A stretch of DNA of 64,000 nt, from IMG/VR virus record IMGVR_UViG_3300031576_000026, positions 16,292-80,291 of that record; one strand, given 5' to 3'. Under the pieces are notes generated by a model. It worked only from the letters and a program-made list of their open reading frames with translations. It did not search any database and had not been told where the DNA came from. Made by a program: the position numbers and the translations under genes. Source of the stretch: a virus. Position 1 is the first letter of the stretch. Each line of letters begins with the position of its first letter. Shown in pieces: positions 35,820-46,342 of this stretch.

Positions 35820-36167
35820 TCATACTTCTCGATTAATAGATCTATCTTCACTAAACCCATCCGGATATCTTTTGCGAAGTTTTTCTACATTAGCTTTCTT
35901 AATGTCATCCTCCTCAAATCCAAACATTTCGGAAAGAACTTCAAGATACCAGTAGCAATCTCCCATTTCACCCATCAATTGTTCTTTCATTTTATCATTA
36001 ACATCATGGCCGTGAAACATAATTTTTTTAATCACGTTTGCCAGTTCCCCTGCTTCGCCTGTTAATCCTAGAGTTGCGTTTACTACTATTTCGTCTGGGT
36101 TTAGTTTTTGATTTAGAGTTCTTAGAACTTCGTCTCGGTAATTCATCATGTCCTTTCCATAGGTCAT
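35820..36167 (-). CDS. mazG: MazG-like nucleotide pyrophosphohydrolase
   Basis: LGLTGEAGEL..IKK...EMGDCYWY...NVEKLRKRYPDGFS. Confidence 0.9.
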   Translation of the reverse strand: MTYGKDMMNYRDEVLRTLNQKLNPDEIVVNATLGLTGEAGELANVIKKIMFHGHDVNDKMKEQLMGEMGDCYWYLEVLSEMFGFEEDDIKKANVEKLRKRYPDGFSEDRSINREV

Positions 36168-36459
36168 CTTTCCCTATATTATTTTTTTCAAACTCCAGTA
36201 AAAAAAGCAAATTACATGCCGCATGCGCTAAGTGTGTTAAACCAGATTCCTTATCTATTCTGGTCATCCCACTAGAATTATATTTATAGAGGTGCCTAAA
36301 TGTTGCATCTAAAATGCGACTCCAATCAAATCCTTCTCTCCAATTTTGCGCTGTATATTTACTTTCACCGTAGGTTAGAACTTCGGCTACTAATAATAAT
36401 GCATCAGAAGGTAGAAGAGAACATCTGGGTTTTCCCTTATCAAACTTTACCCCACCCAT
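36028..36459 (-). CDS. dATP/dGTP diphosphohydrolase-like protein (DUF5664 type)
   Basis: KFDKGKPR.SLLP...VLTYG..KY...NW..G...RH...DKESGLTHLAHAACNLLFL. Confidence 0.85.
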   Translation of the reverse strand: MGGVKFDKGKPRCSLLPSDALLLVAEVLTYGESKYTAQNWREGFDWSRILDATFRHLYKYNSSGMTRIDKESGLTHLAHAACNLLFLLEFEKNNIGKDDLWKGHDELPRRSSKNSKSKTKPRRNSSKRNSRINRRSRGTGKRD

Positions 36460-38749: not shown

Positions 38750-38960
38750 TAATTCTTTTGTATTTTTCTAAATGAATTTCTAGTATTGATTGATTATTAA
38801 TTATGCATTTATAAACGTCTTTTACCGGCACATACTTAAAATAACCAATCAACGCTTTTTTATTGGCATTGAATACATCTAAAATCTTTTCTAGATCTCT
38901 AACAATTATTTTAGCTTTCTTATAATTTTTTAGGTCAAAAATCATCATCATCCACATCAA
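38697..38960 (-). CDS. Hypothetical protein
   Basis: ORF in operon. Confidence 0.5.
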   Translation of the reverse strand: MMWMMMIFDLKNYKKAKIIVRDLEKILDVFNANKKALIGYFKYVPVKDVYKCIINNQSILEIHLEKYKRIIENRGNISESELEEIKK

Positions 38961-39933
38961 ATCCTTGTTTAATACCTAATTGTTGCTTTTTTGTTTGAAA
39001 TTCCTTTTTGAAATATGATATTTCTTTCATAATACTATCTATTGCTTCTTGTGGAGTTATTTCATAAATTGCAGATCTAATTACAATCTCATGTAGATGG
39101 GCTGCTGTCAATTCACTATATTTTTTTTGCTTAATAATCTGTAAAGTTTCGTCTGGTATTTCTCCTTTACTGAAAAATTTAAAAAGTTCGTATCTGGCAT
39201 TGGAATCCGGATAGTCCATTTTTATCTTATCATCAAATCTTCCCGGTCTATTGGTTATATTAGCCAAAAGATTTTCTGGGAAATTAGTAGTTGCTATGAT
39301 GAATATTGGAATTTGGAATATTTTTTCTTTATTGTCTAATAAAGATAAAAGACTGCTCGTACTTTTTATTTTAGCATTTTCAGCTTCAACACCACCTATG
39401 TCTTCAGCCACTAAGATAATTTTTTTAACTCCTTCCACATATTGAAAGCTCTTAAAGAAGTCTTTAACTTCAGACGGATCAATTTTATCAGTTGACCATA
39501 AAATAATAGCAGTTTTATTGTCTTTTGAATATTGTTGACAAACTTTAATTAAAGCTGTGGTTTTCCCCGTACCTGCGCTACCCCATAATAATACAGCCCG
39601 CCTTGGAATTTCTATCCCTAATCTCTTATAAACATGAAGATTACGGAAAAAGCAATCTATTTTTTTAGTTAATTCTGTTACATTTACGAAATTTTCTAAA
39701 ATAGAATCTGTAACAAACGAAGTAGATTCTAATTTTAAACCCTTTAACGTTTTTTGGATTGACCATACTCCAGGTTTAACCTGATATGGTTCTGGTTTAT
39801 ATTCCTCTTCGTGATAAATAAATTGAACAAAATCTCCTTCTGGTGTGACTGTACAAAAATCGCTTTCTTCAATCTTTTCATTTTCCTTTATGTCTAGTAA
39901 TTTTTGTTTTCTGAGTAAAGTGAAATAACCCAT
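38935..39933 (-). CDS. AAA+ ATPase
   Basis: GSAGTGKT Walker A, LVAEDI Walker B, IATTN, RPGRFD. Confidence 0.92.
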   Translation of the reverse strand: MGYFTLLRKQKLLDIKENEKIEESDFCTVTPEGDFVQFIYHEEEYKPEPYQVKPGVWSIQKTLKGLKLESTSFVTDSILENFVNVTELTKKIDCFFRNLHVYKRLGIEIPRRAVLLWGSAGTGKTTALIKVCQQYSKDNKTAIILWSTDKIDPSEVKDFFKSFQYVEGVKKIILVAEDIGGVEAENAKIKSTSSLLSLLDNKEKIFQIPIFIIATTNFPENLLANITNRPGRFDDKIKMDYPDSNARYELFKFFSKGEIPDETLQIIKQKKYSELTAAHLHEIVIRSAIYEITPQEAIDSIMKEISYFKKEFQTKKQQLGIKQGFDVDDDDF

Positions 39934-39935
39934 TA

Positions 39936-40112
39936 TTATTCTCTTCGATATTCTAGATATAGGTTAGCATCAATCACAACTTCTTCTCCGGTATCTTCTG
40001 ATGTAAACTTAATCCATATACATTCTTTATCATGGTATAATACCAACATTCCTCCCCAACCAAATCCTGGCCATTGGCCATATAGATCATAATATCGTTT
40101 CTGGACTTCCAT
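39936..40112 (-). CDS. 58-aa hypothetical protein not in ORF track (MEVQKRYYDLYGQWPGFGWGG...)
   Basis: TAATG coupling to RNA ligase; exactly fills the gap. Confidence 0.6.
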   Translation of the reverse strand: MEVQKRYYDLYGQWPGFGWGGMLVLYHDKECIWIKFTSEDTGEEVVIDANLYLEYRRE

Positions 40113-41224
40113 TAATGAAATTCCGTTCCATTTTTTAATAAATAATAATCGGGATTTATCATCTTAACGATTTTTCTTCCTATTGGAGATATCTTCTCAT
40201 TAATAGATTTAATAACTAATCCTTCATTCGTTTCATTTGATAATGGGTTTTGTCCAACTAAAATATTAGCCTGATTAATGTTAAAAGGCCCCACATATAC
40301 AATTGGAACTACGGGTAATTCCATGCGTTCTGCCATATCAATAAAATCCCAATGATCTAAATATTTATGTGTTCCATCTTCATCCACAAACATTATATCA
40401 AAGATATATAATTTGTATTCTCCTCTAGCACATCCATAATTAAAATTCTTCTGTATTCCGTCTCCGACTATTTCTCCATATACCACATATCCTTCTGGGA
40501 TTTTAGCATCAAGATTATACTGTCTAAATATTTTACTATATACATCCTCTTCATAAAATCCCTTATGTTCTGATTTATCATGTATTTGAACATTATGGCT
40601 ACCCCAAACAAATTGCCATTTAGGTAAAAAACCAAAGAACTTTAGGATTTTTCTATATAGGGTATTTGCATCAAAAGGAACCCAGCCATATCTGGCATTG
40701 GTACCATGTAGTTTAGTAGTCATGACTACTGGTTCATTCTCAGTGAATAGATTGTTATACCACTTAATATTTTCTATATCGGTATATTTGCAAAAATATC
40801 TATTTGATTGTTTTTTAGATTTTTTTACATTGAGTTTACTTGGTAAGGATTCTTTAGCTGGTTCATATTTTTTTACTTGAAGAATTGAGGATACATCTTC
40901 TTCTAATTTACAATTTTTATCGATAACTAATCCGGTATGATGCAAATCAACAATCATTCCTTGTGAGATAGCCCCTCTTATTTTTATTGATTTTACTCTA
41001 GATTTGGTTAATTTGATTTTAGAATCCGGAGGAAATAGTTTTTCTTCTAGATCCACAGGTAGAATAGAATCCACTGGAATATAGATAATAGGTTGACCCA
41101 CCTTGTATAAATCCTTCTGTATTACTACCATCCAATCATATATTTTGGCAACAGATAAACGATCTGCATTTGGATGTGGTAAGATATCCTGAATTGTGGT
41201 TACTGGTACTTTAAACGTACTCAC
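40112..41224 (-). CDS. RNA ligase (DRB0094/Rnl2-like) with N-terminal tRNA-binding-type OB fold
   Basis: PHPNADRL, YIPVDSILP, IRGAISQG; KLHGTN adenylation motif, YGE, FD, EGLVIK. Confidence 0.9.
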   Translation of the reverse strand: MSTFKVPVTTIQDILPHPNADRLSVAKIYDWMVVIQKDLYKVGQPIIYIPVDSILPVDLEEKLFPPDSKIKLTKSRVKSIKIRGAISQGMIVDLHHTGLVIDKNCKLEEDVSSILQVKKYEPAKESLPSKLNVKKSKKQSNRYFCKYTDIENIKWYNNLFTENEPVVMTTKLHGTNARYGWVPFDANTLYRKILKFFGFLPKWQFVWGSHNVQIHDKSEHKGFYEEDVYSKIFRQYNLDAKIPEGYVVYGEIVGDGIQKNFNYGCARGEYKLYIFDIMFVDEDGTHKYLDHWDFIDMAERMELPVVPIVYVGPFNINQANILVGQNPLSNETNEGLVIKSINEKISPIGRKIVKMINPDYYLLKNGTEFH

Positions 41225-41589
41225 GCAGTCTCCTTATTGAAACCATTGGAATTTGAGTAATAAATATTCTTAATGCCGACATCTTTTATGAGCTGAAAAC
41301 AAAAGGAGCAAGGCTTAGCTAAAGCCATCTGACTTGTTTTAGTTTCTCGGTAAACATATATATCACATCCATTCAGATCTTCTCTTCCAGCATTAAGAAT
41401 TGCGTCTAATTCAGCATGCAGCGTTTTCCATTTATTATTACTGCGCCTGTGTGTTCTATTCTTATTGAACCCCATTCCTATGATCTTATTCCCTTTAACT
41501 ATAATAGCCCCCAATTTATGGGGTTTATAATTGCTCTTATAACTTAATTTTCTGGCTACATCAAAAAATCTAACCTTCATAATATCCAA
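41221..41589 (-). CDS. Cytidine/dCMP deaminase-family protein
   Basis: HAE...PCxxC zinc motif. Confidence 0.88.
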   Translation of the reverse strand: MDIMKVRFFDVARKLSYKSNYKPHKLGAIIVKGNKIIGMGFNKNRTHRRSNNKWKTLHAELDAILNAGREDLNGCDIYVYRETKTSQMALAKPCSFCFQLIKDVGIKNIYYSNSNGFNKETA

Positions 41590-44345
41590 TCAATCGGTTT
41601 TACTTTATGCTTTGCAAGCCAATCATTGGTTTTTGAGAAATACTTTCCGCCTAGAAATCCTCCAGATTGATTTAAAGGAGAAGGATGATTTCCAGTTAAT
41701 ACCATTATTTTATCATGAATGGCTAATTTTGTCAATTTATCTTTAGCATATTTTCCCCAACATATAATAACTATAGGTTTTTTCAAGTTAACTAATTTCT
41801 TTAAAACACAATCAGTGTATTGTTCCCAACCAATATTTGAATGTGACAAAGACTTTTCCTCTTCTATAGTTAAAATACTATTTAATAATAATACTCCTTG
41901 ACTTGCCCATGGACTAAGATCTCCACTAGAAGGAAAATTAATGTTTAGATCGGCTTGAAGTTCTTTAAATACATTTTTTAATGAGGCTGGAATTTTAGAA
42001 TGACTAACAGAAAATGCTAACCCACAAGCATCTTTCTTGTTGGGATAAGGATCTTGACCTATAATAACCACTTTGGTTTTATCTGGGTTAAAATACTCAA
42101 ATGCTTTAAAAATTTTATCCTTTCCCGGTAATATTGATTTTCCTGAAGATTCTTCTTTTTGAATAAAATCCAATGCTTTGGTTTTATACAAGCTCATTTC
42201 AAATTTAAGTAATTGATTTTGATGTTTTTTTAATGAATAATTAGGAAAAATTTTAGTGTCTAAAATAGTTGAAAATCTTTGTGCTGTTTTATGAAGCTTT
42301 TCCAAGAATTTAGATTTACTATGATCACCATCGAAATCTTCTATTAGTGCTAAACTATTATCTGTTTTAAAATAACAATAAATCCTATCTCCTTCCACAT
42401 AATCTGTTTCTTCTATTGCATCTCTAACTTTTGACTCATTGGTTCTTTCGGATGTTAAAGTTTTATCTGAAATAGTCATCCGTTTAACCCAGCGCTTAAT
42501 ATCTTTAATATCAAGTATTTCTTTAACATAATCTTCATAAATTTTCAAATAGCCATGTGTTTCTTTTATAATACCACCAACGATTTTCTCTAGAAATTCT
42601 CTGAGGGCTGGTTCTAGAGTGGGGCTTTTTAAAGCAGATCCTTTATATTTAATATCTCCATTTTCTTTATGAAGAACATAATTTTTACTTTTGATAACAA
42701 TAAATTTCGGATAAAATCCATCATCGTCCCATCTAATTGTCTGAGGAAAATTCCCAGATAGTTCATCTTTTAATAATATTCTTTGTTCCTTATGTATAAA
42801 AGATCCATCCATATGGCCAAAAGATATACTATCTGTATCAACATTTGCTATGAGCATATTTCTAGAATTTACCCAGTCAATTCCCCTTTGTAATATCTCT
42901 CTGCCGTAACGAGTAACCGTGGCTGCTCCTTCTCCATAATTAAAAGCCAATCCCGGAGCACCCATAAATCCATATAAAGAATTAATAAATATCTTTTCAG
43001 ATTGCTCTAGATGTTTATAATAATCTTCTCCGGTATCTTGGGCAAGCCCTTTGTTTTTTAATCTCTCAGTTCTAAAATATTCTACTAAGTTTAAAAAATA
43101 TTTATCGGGATCTTTTTTCTCCGGATAGATTTTATATTCCATCATAATAGACGGATAAAGAGAAGCTATGTCAAGTTTTAAAATATTATTAAATATTCCC
43201 GGATTACCCCAAGAAATTGCTCCTTCAAATTCTGGTATAATATCAGCTTTGGGAATAGAGTGATCTTTCTGTAAATAAGATCTTAACATTATAGAATTTA
43301 ATTGACTTCCGCTCGCACTCTGCATTGTGGCTTGGAAAGATTTGGGTATACTTTGAGCCATATAGAAATATGGAGGTATAAATTTATCAAAAAGAGTAAG
43401 AGAATCATCTGCATCGTGTATACAATAATCTTTAATTTTATCCCATTCTTGGGTTATTTTATAATTATCCCTTATTCGGGATGCATCATAAAAGACACGA
43501 TCTTTATTTTCCCAGCCTTCTTGTTTAATAATTGCTTTTAATCCATAACTATCATATTTTTTTTCAACACTGTCGGCTTTGATAGCCAAAAACATTGTAT
43601 CTATTATATTTCTGCCATATATATAACAATCATGATAATGTAAATCTCTATTTCCGTCTACACGAAAATCTGATTGATATTTATCATTTATTTTCAGGCT
43701 GCTGCCATCCCTACCTATATCTAAACTTATATCGTATTTAGAAGCTATATAATTTAAATAAGGTAAATCATATCCAAAACAATTATGACCGAGAAGAATC
43801 GAAGGATCTATTTTTCTAACCCAGGAGCACCAATCCTGTATCATGACTCCTTCATCTTCATAATCATCATATGCAAATAGTTTTCTGGTTATTGTATTAC
43901 ATCTCCTGAATGTATTTGAAATTAATAGAAGTTTTGCGTCTTCAGTGTGTTTTAATGTCGTTGCTTCAATGTCAAAGGCCAATACGCCTATATCTGAAGG
44001 CTTCATATCTTTAAAATAACCGTAGCCTTCCTTAATCATTAAAGATTCTTTTGAATTATATATAGAAAAAGTATCTTGGCCTTTGTAGTGACGACGACAA
44101 TCTAGAAATTTTCTTTTATTATCATAGTATTGGATAAATCCATAATGTAAATCTCCATTTAATCTTTTCCATTTACCCTCTAATGACTTTGAGGACAATA
44201 TCCAATATGTATTAGGAAAAAATTCACTGGTTACGGAACCATCCGGATTTTCTCTAAAAATTTCTACGCTATTATCTTTTGGTTCAATGGCCACGATATA
44301 GTTTATTGGTGATTTGCCAAAGATTAATGAATTGATATTATTCAT
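41577..44345 (-). CDS. Family B DNA polymerase fused to C-terminal family-1 uracil-DNA glycosylase
   Basis: Exo FDIE, GHN..YDLPY, YCIHD; pol DIASLYPS, KIFINSLYG, DTDS; UNG GQDPY, GLAFS, GVLLLN, HPSPL. Confidence 0.93.
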   Translation of the reverse strand: MNNINSLIFGKSPINYIVAIEPKDNSVEIFRENPDGSVTSEFFPNTYWILSSKSLEGKWKRLNGDLHYGFIQYYDNKRKFLDCRRHYKGQDTFSIYNSKESLMIKEGYGYFKDMKPSDIGVLAFDIEATTLKHTEDAKLLLISNTFRRCNTITRKLFAYDDYEDEGVMIQDWCSWVRKIDPSILLGHNCFGYDLPYLNYIASKYDISLDIGRDGSSLKINDKYQSDFRVDGNRDLHYHDCYIYGRNIIDTMFLAIKADSVEKKYDSYGLKAIIKQEGWENKDRVFYDASRIRDNYKITQEWDKIKDYCIHDADDSLTLFDKFIPPYFYMAQSIPKSFQATMQSASGSQLNSIMLRSYLQKDHSIPKADIIPEFEGAISWGNPGIFNNILKLDIASLYPSIMMEYKIYPEKKDPDKYFLNLVEYFRTERLKNKGLAQDTGEDYYKHLEQSEKIFINSLYGFMGAPGLAFNYGEGAATVTRYGREILQRGIDWVNSRNMLIANVDTDSISFGHMDGSFIHKEQRILLKDELSGNFPQTIRWDDDGFYPKFIVIKSKNYVLHKENGDIKYKGSALKSPTLEPALREFLEKIVGGIIKETHGYLKIYEDYVKEILDIKDIKRWVKRMTISDKTLTSERTNESKVRDAIEETDYVEGDRIYCYFKTDNSLALIEDFDGDHSKSKFLEKLHKTAQRFSTILDTKIFPNYSLKKHQNQLLKFEMSLYKTKALDFIQKEESSGKSILPGKDKIFKAFEYFNPDKTKVVIIGQDPYPNKKDACGLAFSVSHSKIPASLKNVFKELQADLNINFPSSGDLSPWASQGVLLLNSILTIEEEKSLSHSNIGWEQYTDCVLKKLVNLKKPIVIICWGKYAKDKLTKLAIHDKIMVLTGNHPSPLNQSGGFLGGKYFSKTNDWLAKHKVKPIDWIL

Positions 44346-46342
44346 TAACTACTCCAATGACTATCTGTGTTATTTTTATTTTCTGATTCCTTTTTTCTTC
44401 TTTTCAAGTCGTCTAATTTCTTTCTTTGTTCTTCCGTTTCAATGCTACTTATAATACCTCTAACTCCATCCCATAAAAAATCACCTTGCCATAAAGATCC
44501 AAATCTATTTTTAACAACAGAGATAGAAGCGAATTTGTCTTCACGGACCGTTGCTGGATTATATCCTTCTCTCCATAATCCTAAAATTAGAGAACAGCTT
44601 TGTTCTATTAAACTAGATCCTTTAACTGCTCTTAGAGTTAAGATTGGATCTGAGATATTGGGAGTAGCATGCTTCTGGGTTTGTAATAACAGTAAAACAC
44701 AGGCAGACATTTCATTAGCTAAATCTTTTAATTGGTTAGCAATAATCCCAGTATTTGCGATTGGATCACTATATGGTCCAGCTATGCATTCTAGATAGTC
44801 TACTATGATTAATTTTACCTTTTGACTTGTACTTTCCTCGTGTTTTAAAATAATATTTCTCATGTCTGGTATAGTTAATCCAGATTTAAAGTTAAATCCA
44901 ACATTTTTATATTCTTCCTGGATTTGTTTAATAATTTTCTCTTTCTCTTTGGTATTATTCTTAAATACATCTAATACATGTTTAAAACTATGTCCGGTTA
45001 ATTTTTGAACTAACTTTGCGTAAATAATAGGAAGCCCCATATCTAAGCTAAAAAATACAGAACTTATACCGGATAGTGAAGCATTTCTTAAATAATTAAG
45101 AGATAGTGATGTTTTACCACTTCCCGGAGCACCGACTAGTCCTACTAGGTTATACGCTAATAGCATTGCATTATCATCAAGTTCTTTAAGTCCAGTTTTA
45201 ATTATATTTTGCTCATGGTTAACTGCAAAATTCGCAAACTGTTGATTAAATCTATCGAATGTAACACAAGGAGTTTCTTCCTCTTCGTCTGGACATTTAT
45301 GATTGTCCAAGCTCTGGCAGTAATCTTTTAACCATCTATTAGATGGTGTATCATCTTTTTTACAACTATGTTGCCCTCCTCTCCAAGTATCTTTAAAGAC
45401 GGCCCCTTCGATAATATTATTCCACAGTTCTTCTTTCGAGAACTTATTCTCTCCAGTTCTTTCAACATGTCTTTCAATAGCATCTTTACATAATCTATAA
45501 GTTGCGGTATTAGAAAACCCCATAGTCCGATAGGTAGATGCTAAAATCATTAAAGCTATATCTCTGCTACCTTCTTGAAAGTAACCTTGCGATAAAGCCC
45601 ACTTACAGCTTCTCCAATGCTTAGGTTTTTGTAACCAATCAAGCCCTTCAGTTTTTAGTTGGATGGATCGAACCACGGGAACTATTTGCCCATGTTCAAG
45701 CAAAGCTTTATTAATTATAAAAGGATGGTACCATTTAATAATATCATCTATTTCTACATCACAATTAGTTTTAGCCAATTCTCTAACTTGATTTGCATCC
45801 CAACTATTTAATTCTGTTAATGTTATTGGAATTTTGTAAAGACCCGAAGCGGCGTGTTTAGAAAATGGAATGCGGAATACTCTTTGATTATCATAAATTT
45901 TACTATCAAATGTTCGTAACTCTTTCCCTAAATTAGTACAAATTAATCCTACAATATTAACAGGAAGATCTTTATTAAGATCAACCATGACACTGATGCC
46001 TTTATGTCCCGAAAAACATATTTGAATATTCTGTTCTATCATTCCCAAATCAAGCAATTTTTTACAGAGTAGTCTAGCATCATCTATTGCATTTTGAAGA
46101 TTATCAACACTATCAAAATCAAACCAAAGTCTATCTGTTTTACTATCGGTTATTCCAGATAAAGTATGTGTTTTTTGCCATTGCTCATATTGTTCTTGGG
46201 TATATTTAGCCATGGAGATAAACCATGGGTTATTTAGATCTTTAATATGCTTATATGGAGATTCATCGGTGGGAATAAGCCAGTGATATTTTAAATCGGA
46301 TGTAAGCTTTCGGTATTCCATAATATATATACATATATACAA
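44345..46342 (-). CDS. AEP-type primase fused to DnaB-like SF4 helicase
   Basis: FDFD, SGHKG, RVFRIP; GAPGSGKT, IIVDYL, KNRFG; likely start MEYRK at 46321. Confidence 0.85.
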   Translation of the reverse strand: MYICIYIMEYRKLTSDLKYHWLIPTDESPYKHIKDLNNPWFISMAKYTQEQYEQWQKTHTLSGITDSKTDRLWFDFDSVDNLQNAIDDARLLCKKLLDLGMIEQNIQICFSGHKGISVMVDLNKDLPVNIVGLICTNLGKELRTFDSKIYDNQRVFRIPFSKHAASGLYKIPITLTELNSWDANQVRELAKTNCDVEIDDIIKWYHPFIINKALLEHGQIVPVVRSIQLKTEGLDWLQKPKHWRSCKWALSQGYFQEGSRDIALMILASTYRTMGFSNTATYRLCKDAIERHVERTGENKFSKEELWNNIIEGAVFKDTWRGGQHSCKKDDTPSNRWLKDYCQSLDNHKCPDEEEETPCVTFDRFNQQFANFAVNHEQNIIKTGLKELDDNAMLLAYNLVGLVGAPGSGKTSLSLNYLRNASLSGISSVFFSLDMGLPIIYAKLVQKLTGHSFKHVLDVFKNNTKEKEKIIKQIQEEYKNVGFNFKSGLTIPDMRNIILKHEESTSQKVKLIIVDYLECIAGPYSDPIANTGIIANQLKDLANEMSACVLLLLQTQKHATPNISDPILTLRAVKGSSLIEQSCSLILGLWREGYNPATVREDKFASISVVKNRFGSLWQGDFLWDGVRGIISSIETEEQRKKLDDLKRRKKESENKNNTDSHWSS

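What the first reader, a model, noticed from the sequence alone, without database searches (positions are those of the whole stretch)
41221..44345. PolB-UNG fusion overlapping a cytidine/dCMP deaminase gene
Seen: one 922-aa ORF with intact exonuclease and PolB motifs plus a complete family-1 UNG (GQDPY, HPSPL; about 41577-42197). A HAE/PCxxC deaminase overlaps its 3' end. Known: poxvirus UNG D4 is part of the polymerase processivity factor, and SPO1-like PolA enzymes carry a different UDG family at the N-terminus. Inference: replication-coupled uracil excision, fitting a dUMP-generating route (deaminase, ThyX, RNR) with no recognisable trimeric dUTPase; or a processivity role, as no clamp is visible; or protection against host dCTP-deaminase defence. 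A deaminase-UNG-polymerase mutator is a more remote option.
Basis: partly seen in the sequence, partly recalled or inferred. Interest (0 to 1): 0.7.

Follow-up and report, generated by a model that had tools for sequence, protein, structure and literature searches.

The report
Phage DNA polymerase fused to uracil glycosylase
An uncultured 80-kb cave phage makes its family B replicative DNA polymerase with a complete uracil-removing repair enzyme on its tail, a rare but recurring design that is the family B counterpart of the uracil-repairing family A phage polymerases described in 2026.

Summary
ORF 41577-44345 (-) is one 922-aa protein. It has intact family B exonuclease and polymerase motifs, then a canonical family-1 UNG from M717 (E 1.6e-50 to solved UNGs). 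A dCMP-deaminase gene starts in an ATGA overlap with its stop codon.

The fusion is not an artefact. A second assembly of the same sample spans it without differences. Twelve other divergent proteins carry the same thumb-to-UNG join: two full-length, nine on the C-terminal half of a split PolB, and one with an extra domain between. All keep the catalytic Asp, Tyr, Phe, Asn, His and Leu. In other relatives UNG is a separate gene directly after PolB, so the fusion arose from neighbouring genes. More than 1000 homologous PolBs lack it.

A MazG-like pyrophosphatase sits where relatives have dUTPase. Three other UNG-bearing relatives also encode dUTPase. The deaminase also occurs beside an unfused PolB.

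The most likely function is replication-coupled uracil excision. I found no paper describing a PolB with a family-1 UNG. The concept is established for UDG-PolA (NAR 2026) and for poxvirus polymerase with UNG in trans, so this is a new variant of a known kind. This scan earlier noted N-terminal family-4 UDG-PolB fusions on other DNA.

The parts
41577..44345 (-). PolB-UNG fusion gene, 922 aa including the stop codon at 41577-41579
   Evidence: Single ORF. Pfam PolB exo, PolB and UDG domains. AF2 model with mean pLDDT 91.4 and pTM 0.75.
42210..44345 (-). Family B DNA polymerase core, residues 1-712: N-terminal and 3'-5' exonuclease domains, palm, fingers and thumb
   Evidence: Exo I-III and motifs A, B and C are present and invariant. 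Foldseek best hits are archaeal PolB enzymes (KOD, 9N, Tgo) at E 2e-34 and TM about 0.73. More than 1000 homologues of about 715 aa exist.
42147..42230 (-). Junction, residues 706-733. M717 (ATG at 42195-42197) is probably the relic start codon of a once-separate UNG gene. There is no Shine-Dalgarno sequence upstream of it.
   Evidence: DNA read. In L031 the PolB C-half ends ...LLQELK* and UNG starts with M in an ATGA overlap. AF2 predicts one helix across residues 706-733, with junction pLDDT of 65-76.
41580..42197 (-). Family-1 uracil-DNA glycosylase domain, residues 717-922, with catalytic D765, Y767, F778, N822, H887 and L891
   Evidence: phmmer against PDB: 3tr7 at E 1.6e-50 and 46 UNG chains in all. 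Motif positions. The same residues are conserved in the 12 sequences of the PolB-to-UNG fusion family examined.
41221..41580 (-). Small dCMP-deaminase-type gene. The probable start is ATG at 41580, overlapping the PolB-UNG stop as ATGA; an alternative TTG start lies at 41589.
   Evidence: PF00383 at E 2e-16. Best solved matches are dCMP deaminases 2w4l, 4p9c and 1vq2. Sequence read.
40112..41224 (-). Rnl5/Rnl2-type ATP-dependent ligase annotated as RNA ligase. It tends to accompany UNG in this phage group.
   Evidence: PF09414 and PF21189. Best PDB matches are Naegleria RNA ligase and T4 Rnl2. It follows UNG in L032, L048 and L051. It is absent from five UNG-less relatives and from G008.
44345..46342 (-). 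Primase-helicase (AEP/PrimPol-like N-terminus plus DnaB-like C-terminus), immediately upstream of the polymerase gene
   Evidence: Pfam DnaB_C at E 1e-23; PHROG primase and helicase families. The synteny is conserved in relatives.
35820..36167 (-). MazG-like NTP pyrophosphohydrolase at the position where relatives carry trimeric dUTPase (context for uracil metabolism)
   Evidence: PF03819 at E 7e-8. phrog_229 at E 7e-34. Synteny. Absent from G001-G004.

Best explanation
The gene encodes the phage's replicative family B DNA polymerase with a catalytically competent family-1 uracil-DNA glycosylase joined to the end of its thumb domain.

Origin. In this phage group a UNG gene sits directly downstream of PolB. 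In one sub-lineage the PolB stop codon was lost, so the former UNG start codon became M717.

Function (inferred). The glycosylase is carried by the replisome and excises uracil from phage DNA at the fork. The uracil could be misincorporated dUMP or deaminated cytosine. This starts base excision repair coupled to replication. Completion would need an AP endonuclease, presumably from the host, and a ligase, possibly the Rnl5-type ligase encoded two genes downstream.

What is shown and what is inferred. Shown: the architecture, its recurrence, its origin from adjacent genes, and conservation of the catalytic residues. Inferred: enzymatic activity, which strand is scanned (template ahead of the fork or nascent duplex behind it), and any role of the ligase.
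For: - One ORF with all PolB and UNG motifs. A second assembly agrees with the sequence.
- The same PolB-thumb-to-UNG join occurs in 12 other distinct sequences, 45-57% identical to this one in the parts compared by BLAST. These are P0002 and P0003 (full length), P0242 and P0382-P0389 (the C-terminal half of a split PolB plus UNG, on contigs up to 89 kb), and L064.
- The catalytic Asp, Tyr, Phe, Asn, His and the intercalating Leu are kept in all of them. This argues for selection on glycosylase chemistry.
- In L031, L032, L048 and L051, a UNG of a different lineage is a separate gene right after PolB. In the UNG tree it lies far from the fused UNGs. This suggests that UNG was recruited to this position more than once.
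- A nick-sealing ligase accompanies UNG in 3 of 4 UNG-bearing lineages and in 0 of 5 UNG-less genomes. This parallels the UDG plus ligase co-occurrence reported for SP15-like UDG-PolA phages (PMC13697223).
- For those UDG-PolA enzymes, uracil excision ahead of the fork and repair on the fly were shown biochemically and structurally. The authors expect the same to hold for B-family polymerases (PMC13697223).
Against: - No activity data exist.
- Five relatives with PolBs up to about 52% identical to this one encode no UNG at all, so the function is accessory, not essential.
- No AP endonuclease of the Xth type (PF03372) is encoded in this genome. Nfo and EndoIII were not tested.
- The ligase is of an RNA-ligase type whose solved relatives need a 3' ribonucleotide (plus general knowledge of NgrRnl). 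G008, with a fused UNG, lacks this ligase.
- The water-activating loop reads GQDPYP rather than GQDPYH.
- The spacer between thumb and UNG varies (spacing of 61-96 residues), and L064 has a DUF4326 domain inserted there. This fits a flexible tether better than a fixed channel to one strand.
Confidence: 0.58

Rival explanations
1. The UNG domain mainly acts as a DNA-binding processivity or tethering module for the polymerase, as poxvirus D4/E4 does with A20/A22. Catalysis would be secondary or dispensable.
For: - UNG is attached at the C-terminus of the thumb. In other B-family polymerases that is where processivity factors bind (general knowledge of T4/RB69 gp43-gp45 and herpesvirus UL30-UL42).
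- No beta-clamp N domain or PCNA was detected in the record.
- The neighbouring AAA ATPase resembles Cdc48/FtsH-type AAA proteins, not an RFC clamp loader.
- The loop reads DPYP. From memory, poxvirus D4 also reads DPYP; this was not tested here.
Against: - Relatives with PolBs up to about 52% identical to this one have no UNG anywhere in near-complete genomes, so this polymerase family does not need UNG for processive replication.
- Every catalytic residue is conserved in all 13 fused sequences.
- gp45-type and divergent clamps were not excluded. Clamp content of the relatives was not compared.
Confidence: 0.2
2. The fused UNG is mainly a counter-defence. It would remove uracil put into phage DNA by host systems (dCTP-deaminase defence, DNA cytosine deaminase toxins). 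Being in cis might also shield it from Ugi-like inhibitors.
For: - The patchy distribution (a few lineages among more than 1000 PolB homologues) and the apparently repeated acquisition resemble accessory arms-race genes.
- The cis-versus-trans Ugi idea is raised for UDG-PolA in PMC13697223.
Against: No host, host defence system or inhibitor is identified here. Excising dense uracil without full repair would fragment the genome. The reading is not exclusive of the best explanation.
Confidence: 0.12
3. The fusion is an artefact: an assembly or sequencing error merged two adjacent genes. Alternatively it is a neutral recent stop-codon loss with no functional meaning.
For: - Adjacent, separate PolB and UNG genes exist in relatives.
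- M717 looks like a former start codon, and an A7 run lies about 30 nt upstream.
- Only contigs of the same sample could be laid, not raw reads.
Against: - Twelve other sequences from independent samples share the in-frame join at 45-57% identity in the parts compared by BLAST, so the fusion is old and has been maintained.
- The protein alignment is continuous on both sides of the A7 run.
- A second assembler gives the identical sequence.
Confidence: 0.05
4. Deaminase, UNG and polymerase form a targeted mutator: the deaminase makes U in DNA, UNG makes abasic sites, and the polymerase bypasses them with errors.
For: The genes are translationally coupled by an ATGA overlap.
Against: - The deaminase's only solved relatives are dCMP deaminases, which act on the nucleotide pool.
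- Homologues occur next to an unfused PolB without UNG (L006) and in the UNG-less genome G004.
- ThyX and RNR nearby fit a dTMP-synthesis role.
- The polymerase keeps a complete proofreading exonuclease.
Confidence: 0.03

Closest known systems
UDG-PolA fusions of phages (SP15-like YerA41 and phiLo, SPO1-like, N4-like, PaBG); PMC13697223, PMC10201439, PMC7412058
   Same: A replicative phage polymerase carries a uracil-DNA-glycosylase-superfamily domain in the same polypeptide. In SP15-like enzymes the domain is active, excises dU from the template ahead of the fork, and co-occurs with a phage ligase.
   Different: Those are family A polymerases with a family-4 UDG at the N-terminus, packed between the exo and pol domains, and several belong to phages with modified thymine. 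Here the polymerase is family B, the glycosylase is a canonical family-1 UNG, and it sits at the C-terminus after the thumb with a variable spacer. The phage encodes ThyX, and no base-modification genes were noticed.
Poxvirus replicase holoenzyme (vaccinia E9-A20-D4; mpox F8-A22-E4), and the herpesvirus and ASFV polymerase-UNG contacts
   Same: A family B replicative polymerase is physically coupled to a UNG-type glycosylase, linking uracil surveillance to replication (as summarised in PMC13697223 and PMC4889955).
   Different: In those viruses UNG is a separate protein, held by a bridging subunit in poxviruses, and it acts as part of the processivity factor. Here the link is covalent, no A20/A22-like protein is known, and a processivity role is untested.
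Stand-alone bacterial and phage family-1 UNG (E. coli Ung, Coxiella 3tr7)
   Same: Full-length similarity (E 1.6e-50, 40-50% identity) with all catalytic motifs.
   Different: It is fused to a polymerase. The subfamily signature is GQDPYP...DACGLAFS rather than GQDPYH...QAHGLAFS.
N-terminal family-4 UDG fused to phage PolB
   Same: A family B phage polymerase with a UDG-superfamily domain in cis.
   Different: A different UDG family, at the opposite end of the protein, in other phage lineages. I did not re-test those notes.

Membership tests
Family-1 uracil-DNA glycosylase (UNG) | Water-activating loop GQDPYH with the catalytic Asp and the Tyr that excludes thymine | tested here: met
   GQDPYP at 763-768 (D765, Y767); the final His is replaced by Pro. 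The Asp and Tyr are kept in all 13 fused sequences.
Family-1 uracil-DNA glycosylase (UNG) | Uracil-stacking Phe (GLxFS) and uracil-specific Asn (LLLN) | tested here: met
   GLAFS at 775 (F778) and LLLN at 819 (N822). F and N are invariant in alignment A3 of 37 UNGs.
Family-1 uracil-DNA glycosylase (UNG) | Leu-intercalation loop HPSPLS with the catalytic His | tested here: met
   HPSPL at 887-891.
Family-1 uracil-DNA glycosylase (UNG) | Full-length sequence similarity to solved UNGs | tested here: met
   46 PDB UNG sequences matched; the best is 3tr7 at E 1.6e-50 over residues 19-223 of the 223-residue query.
Family-1 uracil-DNA glycosylase (UNG) | Uracil excision activity | not testable with these tools
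   Needs an enzyme assay.
Family B DNA polymerase (RNA/DNA-primed, proofreading) | Exo I (DxE), Exo II and Exo III motifs | tested here: met
   FDIEA at 124, GYDL at 191 and HDADD at 310. D125, E127, D193, Y307 and D311 are invariant.
Family B DNA polymerase (RNA/DNA-primed, proofreading) | Motif A (DxxSLYPS), motif B (KxxxNSxYG) and motif C (DTDS) | tested here: met
   SLYPS at 395, INSLYG at 454 and DTDS at 503, all invariant. Pfam PF00136 and PF03104.
Family B DNA polymerase (RNA/DNA-primed, proofreading) | PolB fold | tested here: met
   AF2 model with pLDDT 91. Foldseek top hits are KOD, 9N and Tgo PolB at E 2e-34 and TM about 0.73.
UDG-PolA fusion family (SPO1, SP15, N4 types) | Family A polymerase core | tested here: not met
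   The core is family B.
UDG-PolA fusion family (SPO1, SP15, N4 types) | Family-4 UDG domain at the N-terminus | tested here: not met
   The domain is family 1 and C-terminal.
Poxvirus-type polymerase/UNG processivity complex | UNG held on the polymerase by an A20/A22-like bridge and conferring processivity | not testable with these tools
   The link here is covalent. No A20-like protein was searched for. Processivity needs an assay. The docking prediction gave no verdict.
dCMP deaminase (neighbouring gene) | Zinc motifs HAE and PCxxC, and similarity to dCMP deaminases rather than CDA or TadA | tested here: met
   LHAELDAI and KPCSFCFQ. PF00383 at E 2e-16. The only PDB matches are dCMP deaminases 2w4l, 4p9c, 1vq2 and 2hvv. 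The substrate was not testable.

The most novel reading that the evidence does not exclude
The C-terminal UNG has two jobs. It is the uracil scanner of the fork, and it is a DNA-gripping processivity element that lets this clamp-less phage PolB replicate 80 kb. That would make it an independently evolved, covalent bacteriophage version of the poxvirus polymerase-UNG holoenzyme. UNG together with the co-acquired Rnl5-type ligase would then form a portable replication-coupled repair cassette that has been recruited to PolB more than once.
Probability: 0.2. Interest if true: 0.72.

Novelty: new variant of a known kind. Interest (0 to 1): 0.55.

Why it matters
Coupling of uracil repair to the replicative polymerase was demonstrated structurally only in 2026, for family A phage polymerases with a family-4 UDG. 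For family B polymerases it is known only through non-covalent complexes in poxviruses and herpesviruses.

A natural covalent PolB plus family-1 UNG enzyme has several uses:
- It is a compact, tractable model for asking how a B-family replisome handles uracil: on which strand, before or after synthesis, and with or without a gain in processivity.
- Relatives provide ready-made comparisons, because UNG is fused, adjacent as a separate gene, or absent in different lineages.
- It shows convergent evolution of the same solution with a different glycosylase family, at the other end of a different polymerase family.
- A proofreading PolB with built-in UNG could be of practical interest for carry-over control in amplification.

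Tried and rejected
The 83-kb contig of P0002 and the Logan contigs of P0003, P0242 and P0382-P0389 could therefore not be read. P0002's contig was also not found by the search for related loci in viral or metagenome collections.
- The first call for UNG-domain loci used a wrong frame. The single-protein scan of viral contigs found nothing, and P0242 as query found nothing.
- Complex prediction with the PolB core against the UNG domain gave no verdict (ipSAE 0.00 and 0.02, controls not run). It is neither support nor counter-evidence for a fixed docking.
- The look-up of sequencing runs listed no RNA holder. Only Logan contigs from one sample could be laid, so the junction is not confirmed in raw reads.
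- The hypothesis 'UNG compensates for a lost dUTPase' looked attractive at first. The window has UNG and no dUTPase, while five relatives have dUTPase and no UNG. I rejected it as a general rule. G006, G007 and G008 have both, and the window has a MazG-like enzyme in the dUTPase slot.
- The idea that the fused proteins form one clade of the PolB tree was not met. They lie inside one 19-tip clade (support 0.99) but are interspersed with unfused PolBs. Trees of the separate halves gave the same picture.
- The deaminase-UNG fusions P0477 and P0483 turned out to be bacterial TadA-like plus Ung proteins, unrelated to this locus.
- A Z-genome reading of the DUF5664/MazG pair: no PurZ (PF00709) is present.
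- Literature searches for a PolB-UNG or PolB-UDG fusion found nothing. The library lacks most subscription journals.

Full report
WHAT IS THERE

The window is part of an 80,291-bp IMG/VR virus record that CheckV rates 92% complete. It was assembled from a cave metagenome. The phage is tailed: terminase, portal, major head and tail proteins lie on the + strand, and a replication and nucleotide-metabolism arm lies on the - strand.

On that arm the gene order, in the direction of transcription, is as follows:
- RecA/UvsX-like recombinase
- class I/II-type RNR large subunit
- PD-(D/E)XK exonuclease
- ThyX
- four small ORFs
- AEP-type primase fused to a DnaB-like helicase (44345-46342)
- the 922-aa ORF (41577-44345)
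- a 119/122-aa deaminase
- an Rnl5-type ligase
- a 58-aa ORF
- a classical AAA ATPase
- an endonuclease VII/HNH-like gene and a metallophosphoesterase
- a DUF5664 (dATP/dGTP diphosphohydrolase-N) gene
- a MazG-like pyrophosphatase

The 922-aa ORF is uninterrupted. Residues 1-712 are a complete proofreading family B polymerase. Exo I, II and III and motifs A, B and C are all present, and they are invariant among eight homologues. The AlphaFold2 model (mean pLDDT 91.4, pTM 0.75) superposes best on archaeal PolBs such as KOD, 9N and Tgo, with Foldseek E 2e-34 and TM about 0.73.

Residues 717-922 are a canonical family-1 UNG. They match 46 solved UNG sequences, up to E 1.6e-50, over the full length of those enzymes. 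They carry the water-activating loop (GQDPYP), the stacking Phe (GLAFS), the specificity Asn (LLLN) and the His/Leu loop (HPSPL).

The join is in frame (...LLKFE-MSLYK...) and has no ribosome-binding site before M717. The model predicts a single helix across residues 706-733 at reduced confidence (pLDDT 65-76) and no disordered linker.

The deaminase gene most likely starts at the ATG at 41580, which forms an ATGA overlap with the polymerase stop. That is a translational-coupling arrangement.

IS THE FUSION REAL?

A Logan contig of 19.7 kb from the probable source run reproduces 41200-44400 without a single difference. This is a second assembler on the same sample, not independent DNA.

The stronger evidence is comparative.
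- Among the 120 best of more than 1000 PolB homologues (about 715 aa, about 50% identity, on 80-95 kb contigs), two others carry the same C-terminal UNG: P0002 (929 aa) and P0003 (934 aa).
- An exhaustive profile search with the UNG domain also found P0242. This is the C-terminal half of a split PolB, starting just before DTDS, fused to UNG.
- A search around that length found eight more of the same kind, P0382-P0389, on contigs up to 89 kb.
- IMG/VR contig L064 (89 kb, direct terminal repeats, 100% complete) has a further variant: the end of the PolB thumb, then DUF4326, then UNG, in one 456-aa ORF.

That makes 13 distinct sequences from different samples. The relatives are 45-57% identical to the window's protein in the parts compared by BLAST (whole protein, C-terminal half, or the UNG and thumb segments separately). 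All 13 have the catalytic Asp, Tyr, Phe, Asn, His and Leu intact. An assembly artefact or a recent neutral read-through is therefore very unlikely.

HOW IT AROSE

In L031, the C-terminal PolB gene ends ...LLQELK* and a UNG gene begins in an ATGA overlap. In L032 and in L048/L051, a 64-72-aa ORF lies between the two genes. The window's M717 sits exactly where that start codon would be. The fusion is thus a gene fusion of neighbouring genes.

The UNGs of the fused proteins form a small clade (9 tips, support 0.64) with a few stand-alone phage UNGs and a DUF4326-UNG protein. They share the signature GQDPYP...DACGLAFS. The separate UNGs of L031 and L032 are of the usual GQDPYH...QANGLAFS type and lie elsewhere in the tree. 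Support values are modest, but this suggests that UNG was recruited to the position after PolB at least twice.

In the PolB tree the three full-length fusions fall inside one 19-tip clade (support 0.99). They are interspersed with unfused enzymes, so there have been losses, gains or cassette exchange.

Five relatives have no UNG anywhere, and three of them are at least 90% complete. The domain is an accessory, not a requirement of this polymerase family.

(a) 'No trimeric dUTPase' is true for this record, but the inference drawn from it does not hold.
- In relatives the dUTPase gene lies between homologues of window genes 36028-36459 and 35480-35815/35124-35501. In the window that slot holds a MazG-like NTP pyrophosphatase. 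MazG is absent from the four relatives tested. This looks like a non-orthologous replacement, and the MazG-like enzyme may still clear dUTP.
- G006, G007 (UNG as a separate gene) and G008 (UNG fused) all encode dUTPase. UNG and dUTPase are therefore not alternatives in this lineage.

(b) The deaminase is of the dCMP-deaminase type. It occurs directly after an unfused PolB in L006 and in the UNG-less genome G004. Its adjacency to PolB is therefore independent of UNG. With ThyX and RNR it fits dTMP supply, and a DNA-mutator role is improbable.

(c) 'No clamp': neither the beta-clamp N domain nor PCNA is detectable. The conserved AAA ATPase downstream resembles Cdc48/FtsH-type AAA proteins, not RFC. 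gp45-type or divergent clamps were not excluded, and the relatives were not compared for clamps.

(d) A new contextual point concerns the ligase. An Rnl5/Rnl2-type ligase follows UNG in the window, in L032 and in G006/G007. It is absent from five UNG-less genomes. It is also absent from G008, which has the fused UNG. The association is suggestive but not strict.

MECHANISM

The most economical reading is that the glycosylase rides on the polymerase and removes uracil at the fork.

For family A phage polymerases with an N-terminal family-4 UDG this has now been shown. YerA41 and phiLo enzymes excise dU from the template ahead of the active site and bypass the abasic site with dA. Phage PolX and ligase then finish the repair. 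The authors note the analogous position of E4 UNG on the mpox B-family polymerase and expect the principle to extend to B-family enzymes (PMC13697223). See also PMC10201439 for the UDG-PolA families.

The present protein differs in three ways: the UNG is family 1, it hangs from the thumb C-terminus, and its spacer varies and can even accept another domain. I therefore favour a tethered scanner over a fixed template channel.

A poxvirus-D4-like processivity role and a counter-defence role remain possible and are not exclusive. I put about 0.58 on catalytic replication-coupled excision as the main function, 0.20 on a mainly structural processivity role, 0.12 on counter-defence as the main selective reason, 0.05 on artefact or neutral fusion, and 0.03 on a mutator.

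NOVELTY

Four full-text searches found no description of a PolB fused to a family-1 UNG. A global survey of viral replication proteins mentions UNG only for poxvirus D4 (PMC4889955).

The database shows that family-1 UNG is otherwise fused to EndoIII, PIF1-type helicases, YqaJ nucleases and Fpg. The PolB combination is confined to the small group described here.

Earlier notes of this scan report family-4 UDG domains at the N-terminus of other phage PolBs (I did not re-test them).

Taken together this is a new variant of a known kind (polymerase-coupled uracil glycosylase), not a new principle. It is rare, conserved and experimentally attractive.

Noticed in passing
L030:2-1809; L004:10001-12675; L048:8123-10663; L064:5642-11314: The PolB gene of this phage group is often broken just before motif C (DTDS) into two or three genes, with small ORFs between the pieces. 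In L064 the N-terminal part also carries an intein (Intein_splicing plus LAGLIDADG), and a GIY-YIG/NUMOD homing endonuclease gene sits between two pieces. The window's own PolB is uninterrupted.
   Followed up: partly
window 35820-36459 (-): A DUF5664 (dATP/dGTP diphosphohydrolase N-terminal; PF18909 4e-30; phrog_801) ORF at 36028-36459 and a MazG-like ORF at 35820-36167 overlap by 140 nt in different frames. The MazG-like gene sits where relatives have trimeric dUTPase. No PurZ is present, so this is not a 2-aminoadenine pathway. The substrate is unknown.
   Followed up: partly
window 40112-41224 (-); L032:1606-2766; L048:12150-13271: An Rnl5-type ligase (N-terminal OB domain like Naegleria RNA ligase) accompanies UNG in three lineages. 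It is missing from five UNG-less relatives and from G008. Whether it seals DNA nicks is unknown.
   Followed up: partly
L064:9944-11314; protein P0239: A DUF4326 domain lies between the PolB thumb and UNG in L064. P0239 (329 aa) has a different N-terminal domain, not identified here, fused to a UNG 63% identical to the window's. UNG of this subfamily seems prone to fusions.
   Followed up: partly
proteins (P0121-P0237): Family-1 UNG is widely fused to other repair and replication modules in metagenomes: EndoIII (HhH-GPD), PIF1-type helicase with or without an RNase H1-like N-terminus, YqaJ exonuclease and Fpg. Some proteins carry two UNG domains in tandem (P0238, P0241, P0246, P0256).
   Followed up: no
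window 38935-39933 (-): A 332-aa classical AAA ATPase is conserved just downstream of PolB in many relatives: L004, L005, L006, L012, L048 and L064. Its best solved matches are Cdc48, VAT and FtsH. It does not look like a clamp loader, and its role at the replication locus is unknown.
   Followed up: partly
L032:1025-1618: The separate UNG of L032 has GSDPYH and, in place of HPSPL, the sequence GDPSSI. The catalytic His and the intercalating Leu are both lost. In L031 the Leu is replaced by Ile. Some PolB-adjacent UNGs may be inactive.
   Followed up: no
window 42213-42219 (-): An A7 homopolymer lies about 30 nt upstream of the PolB/UNG junction. The protein alignment is continuous across it, so it is not a hidden frameshift, but it is the place to check in raw reads.
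   Followed up: partly
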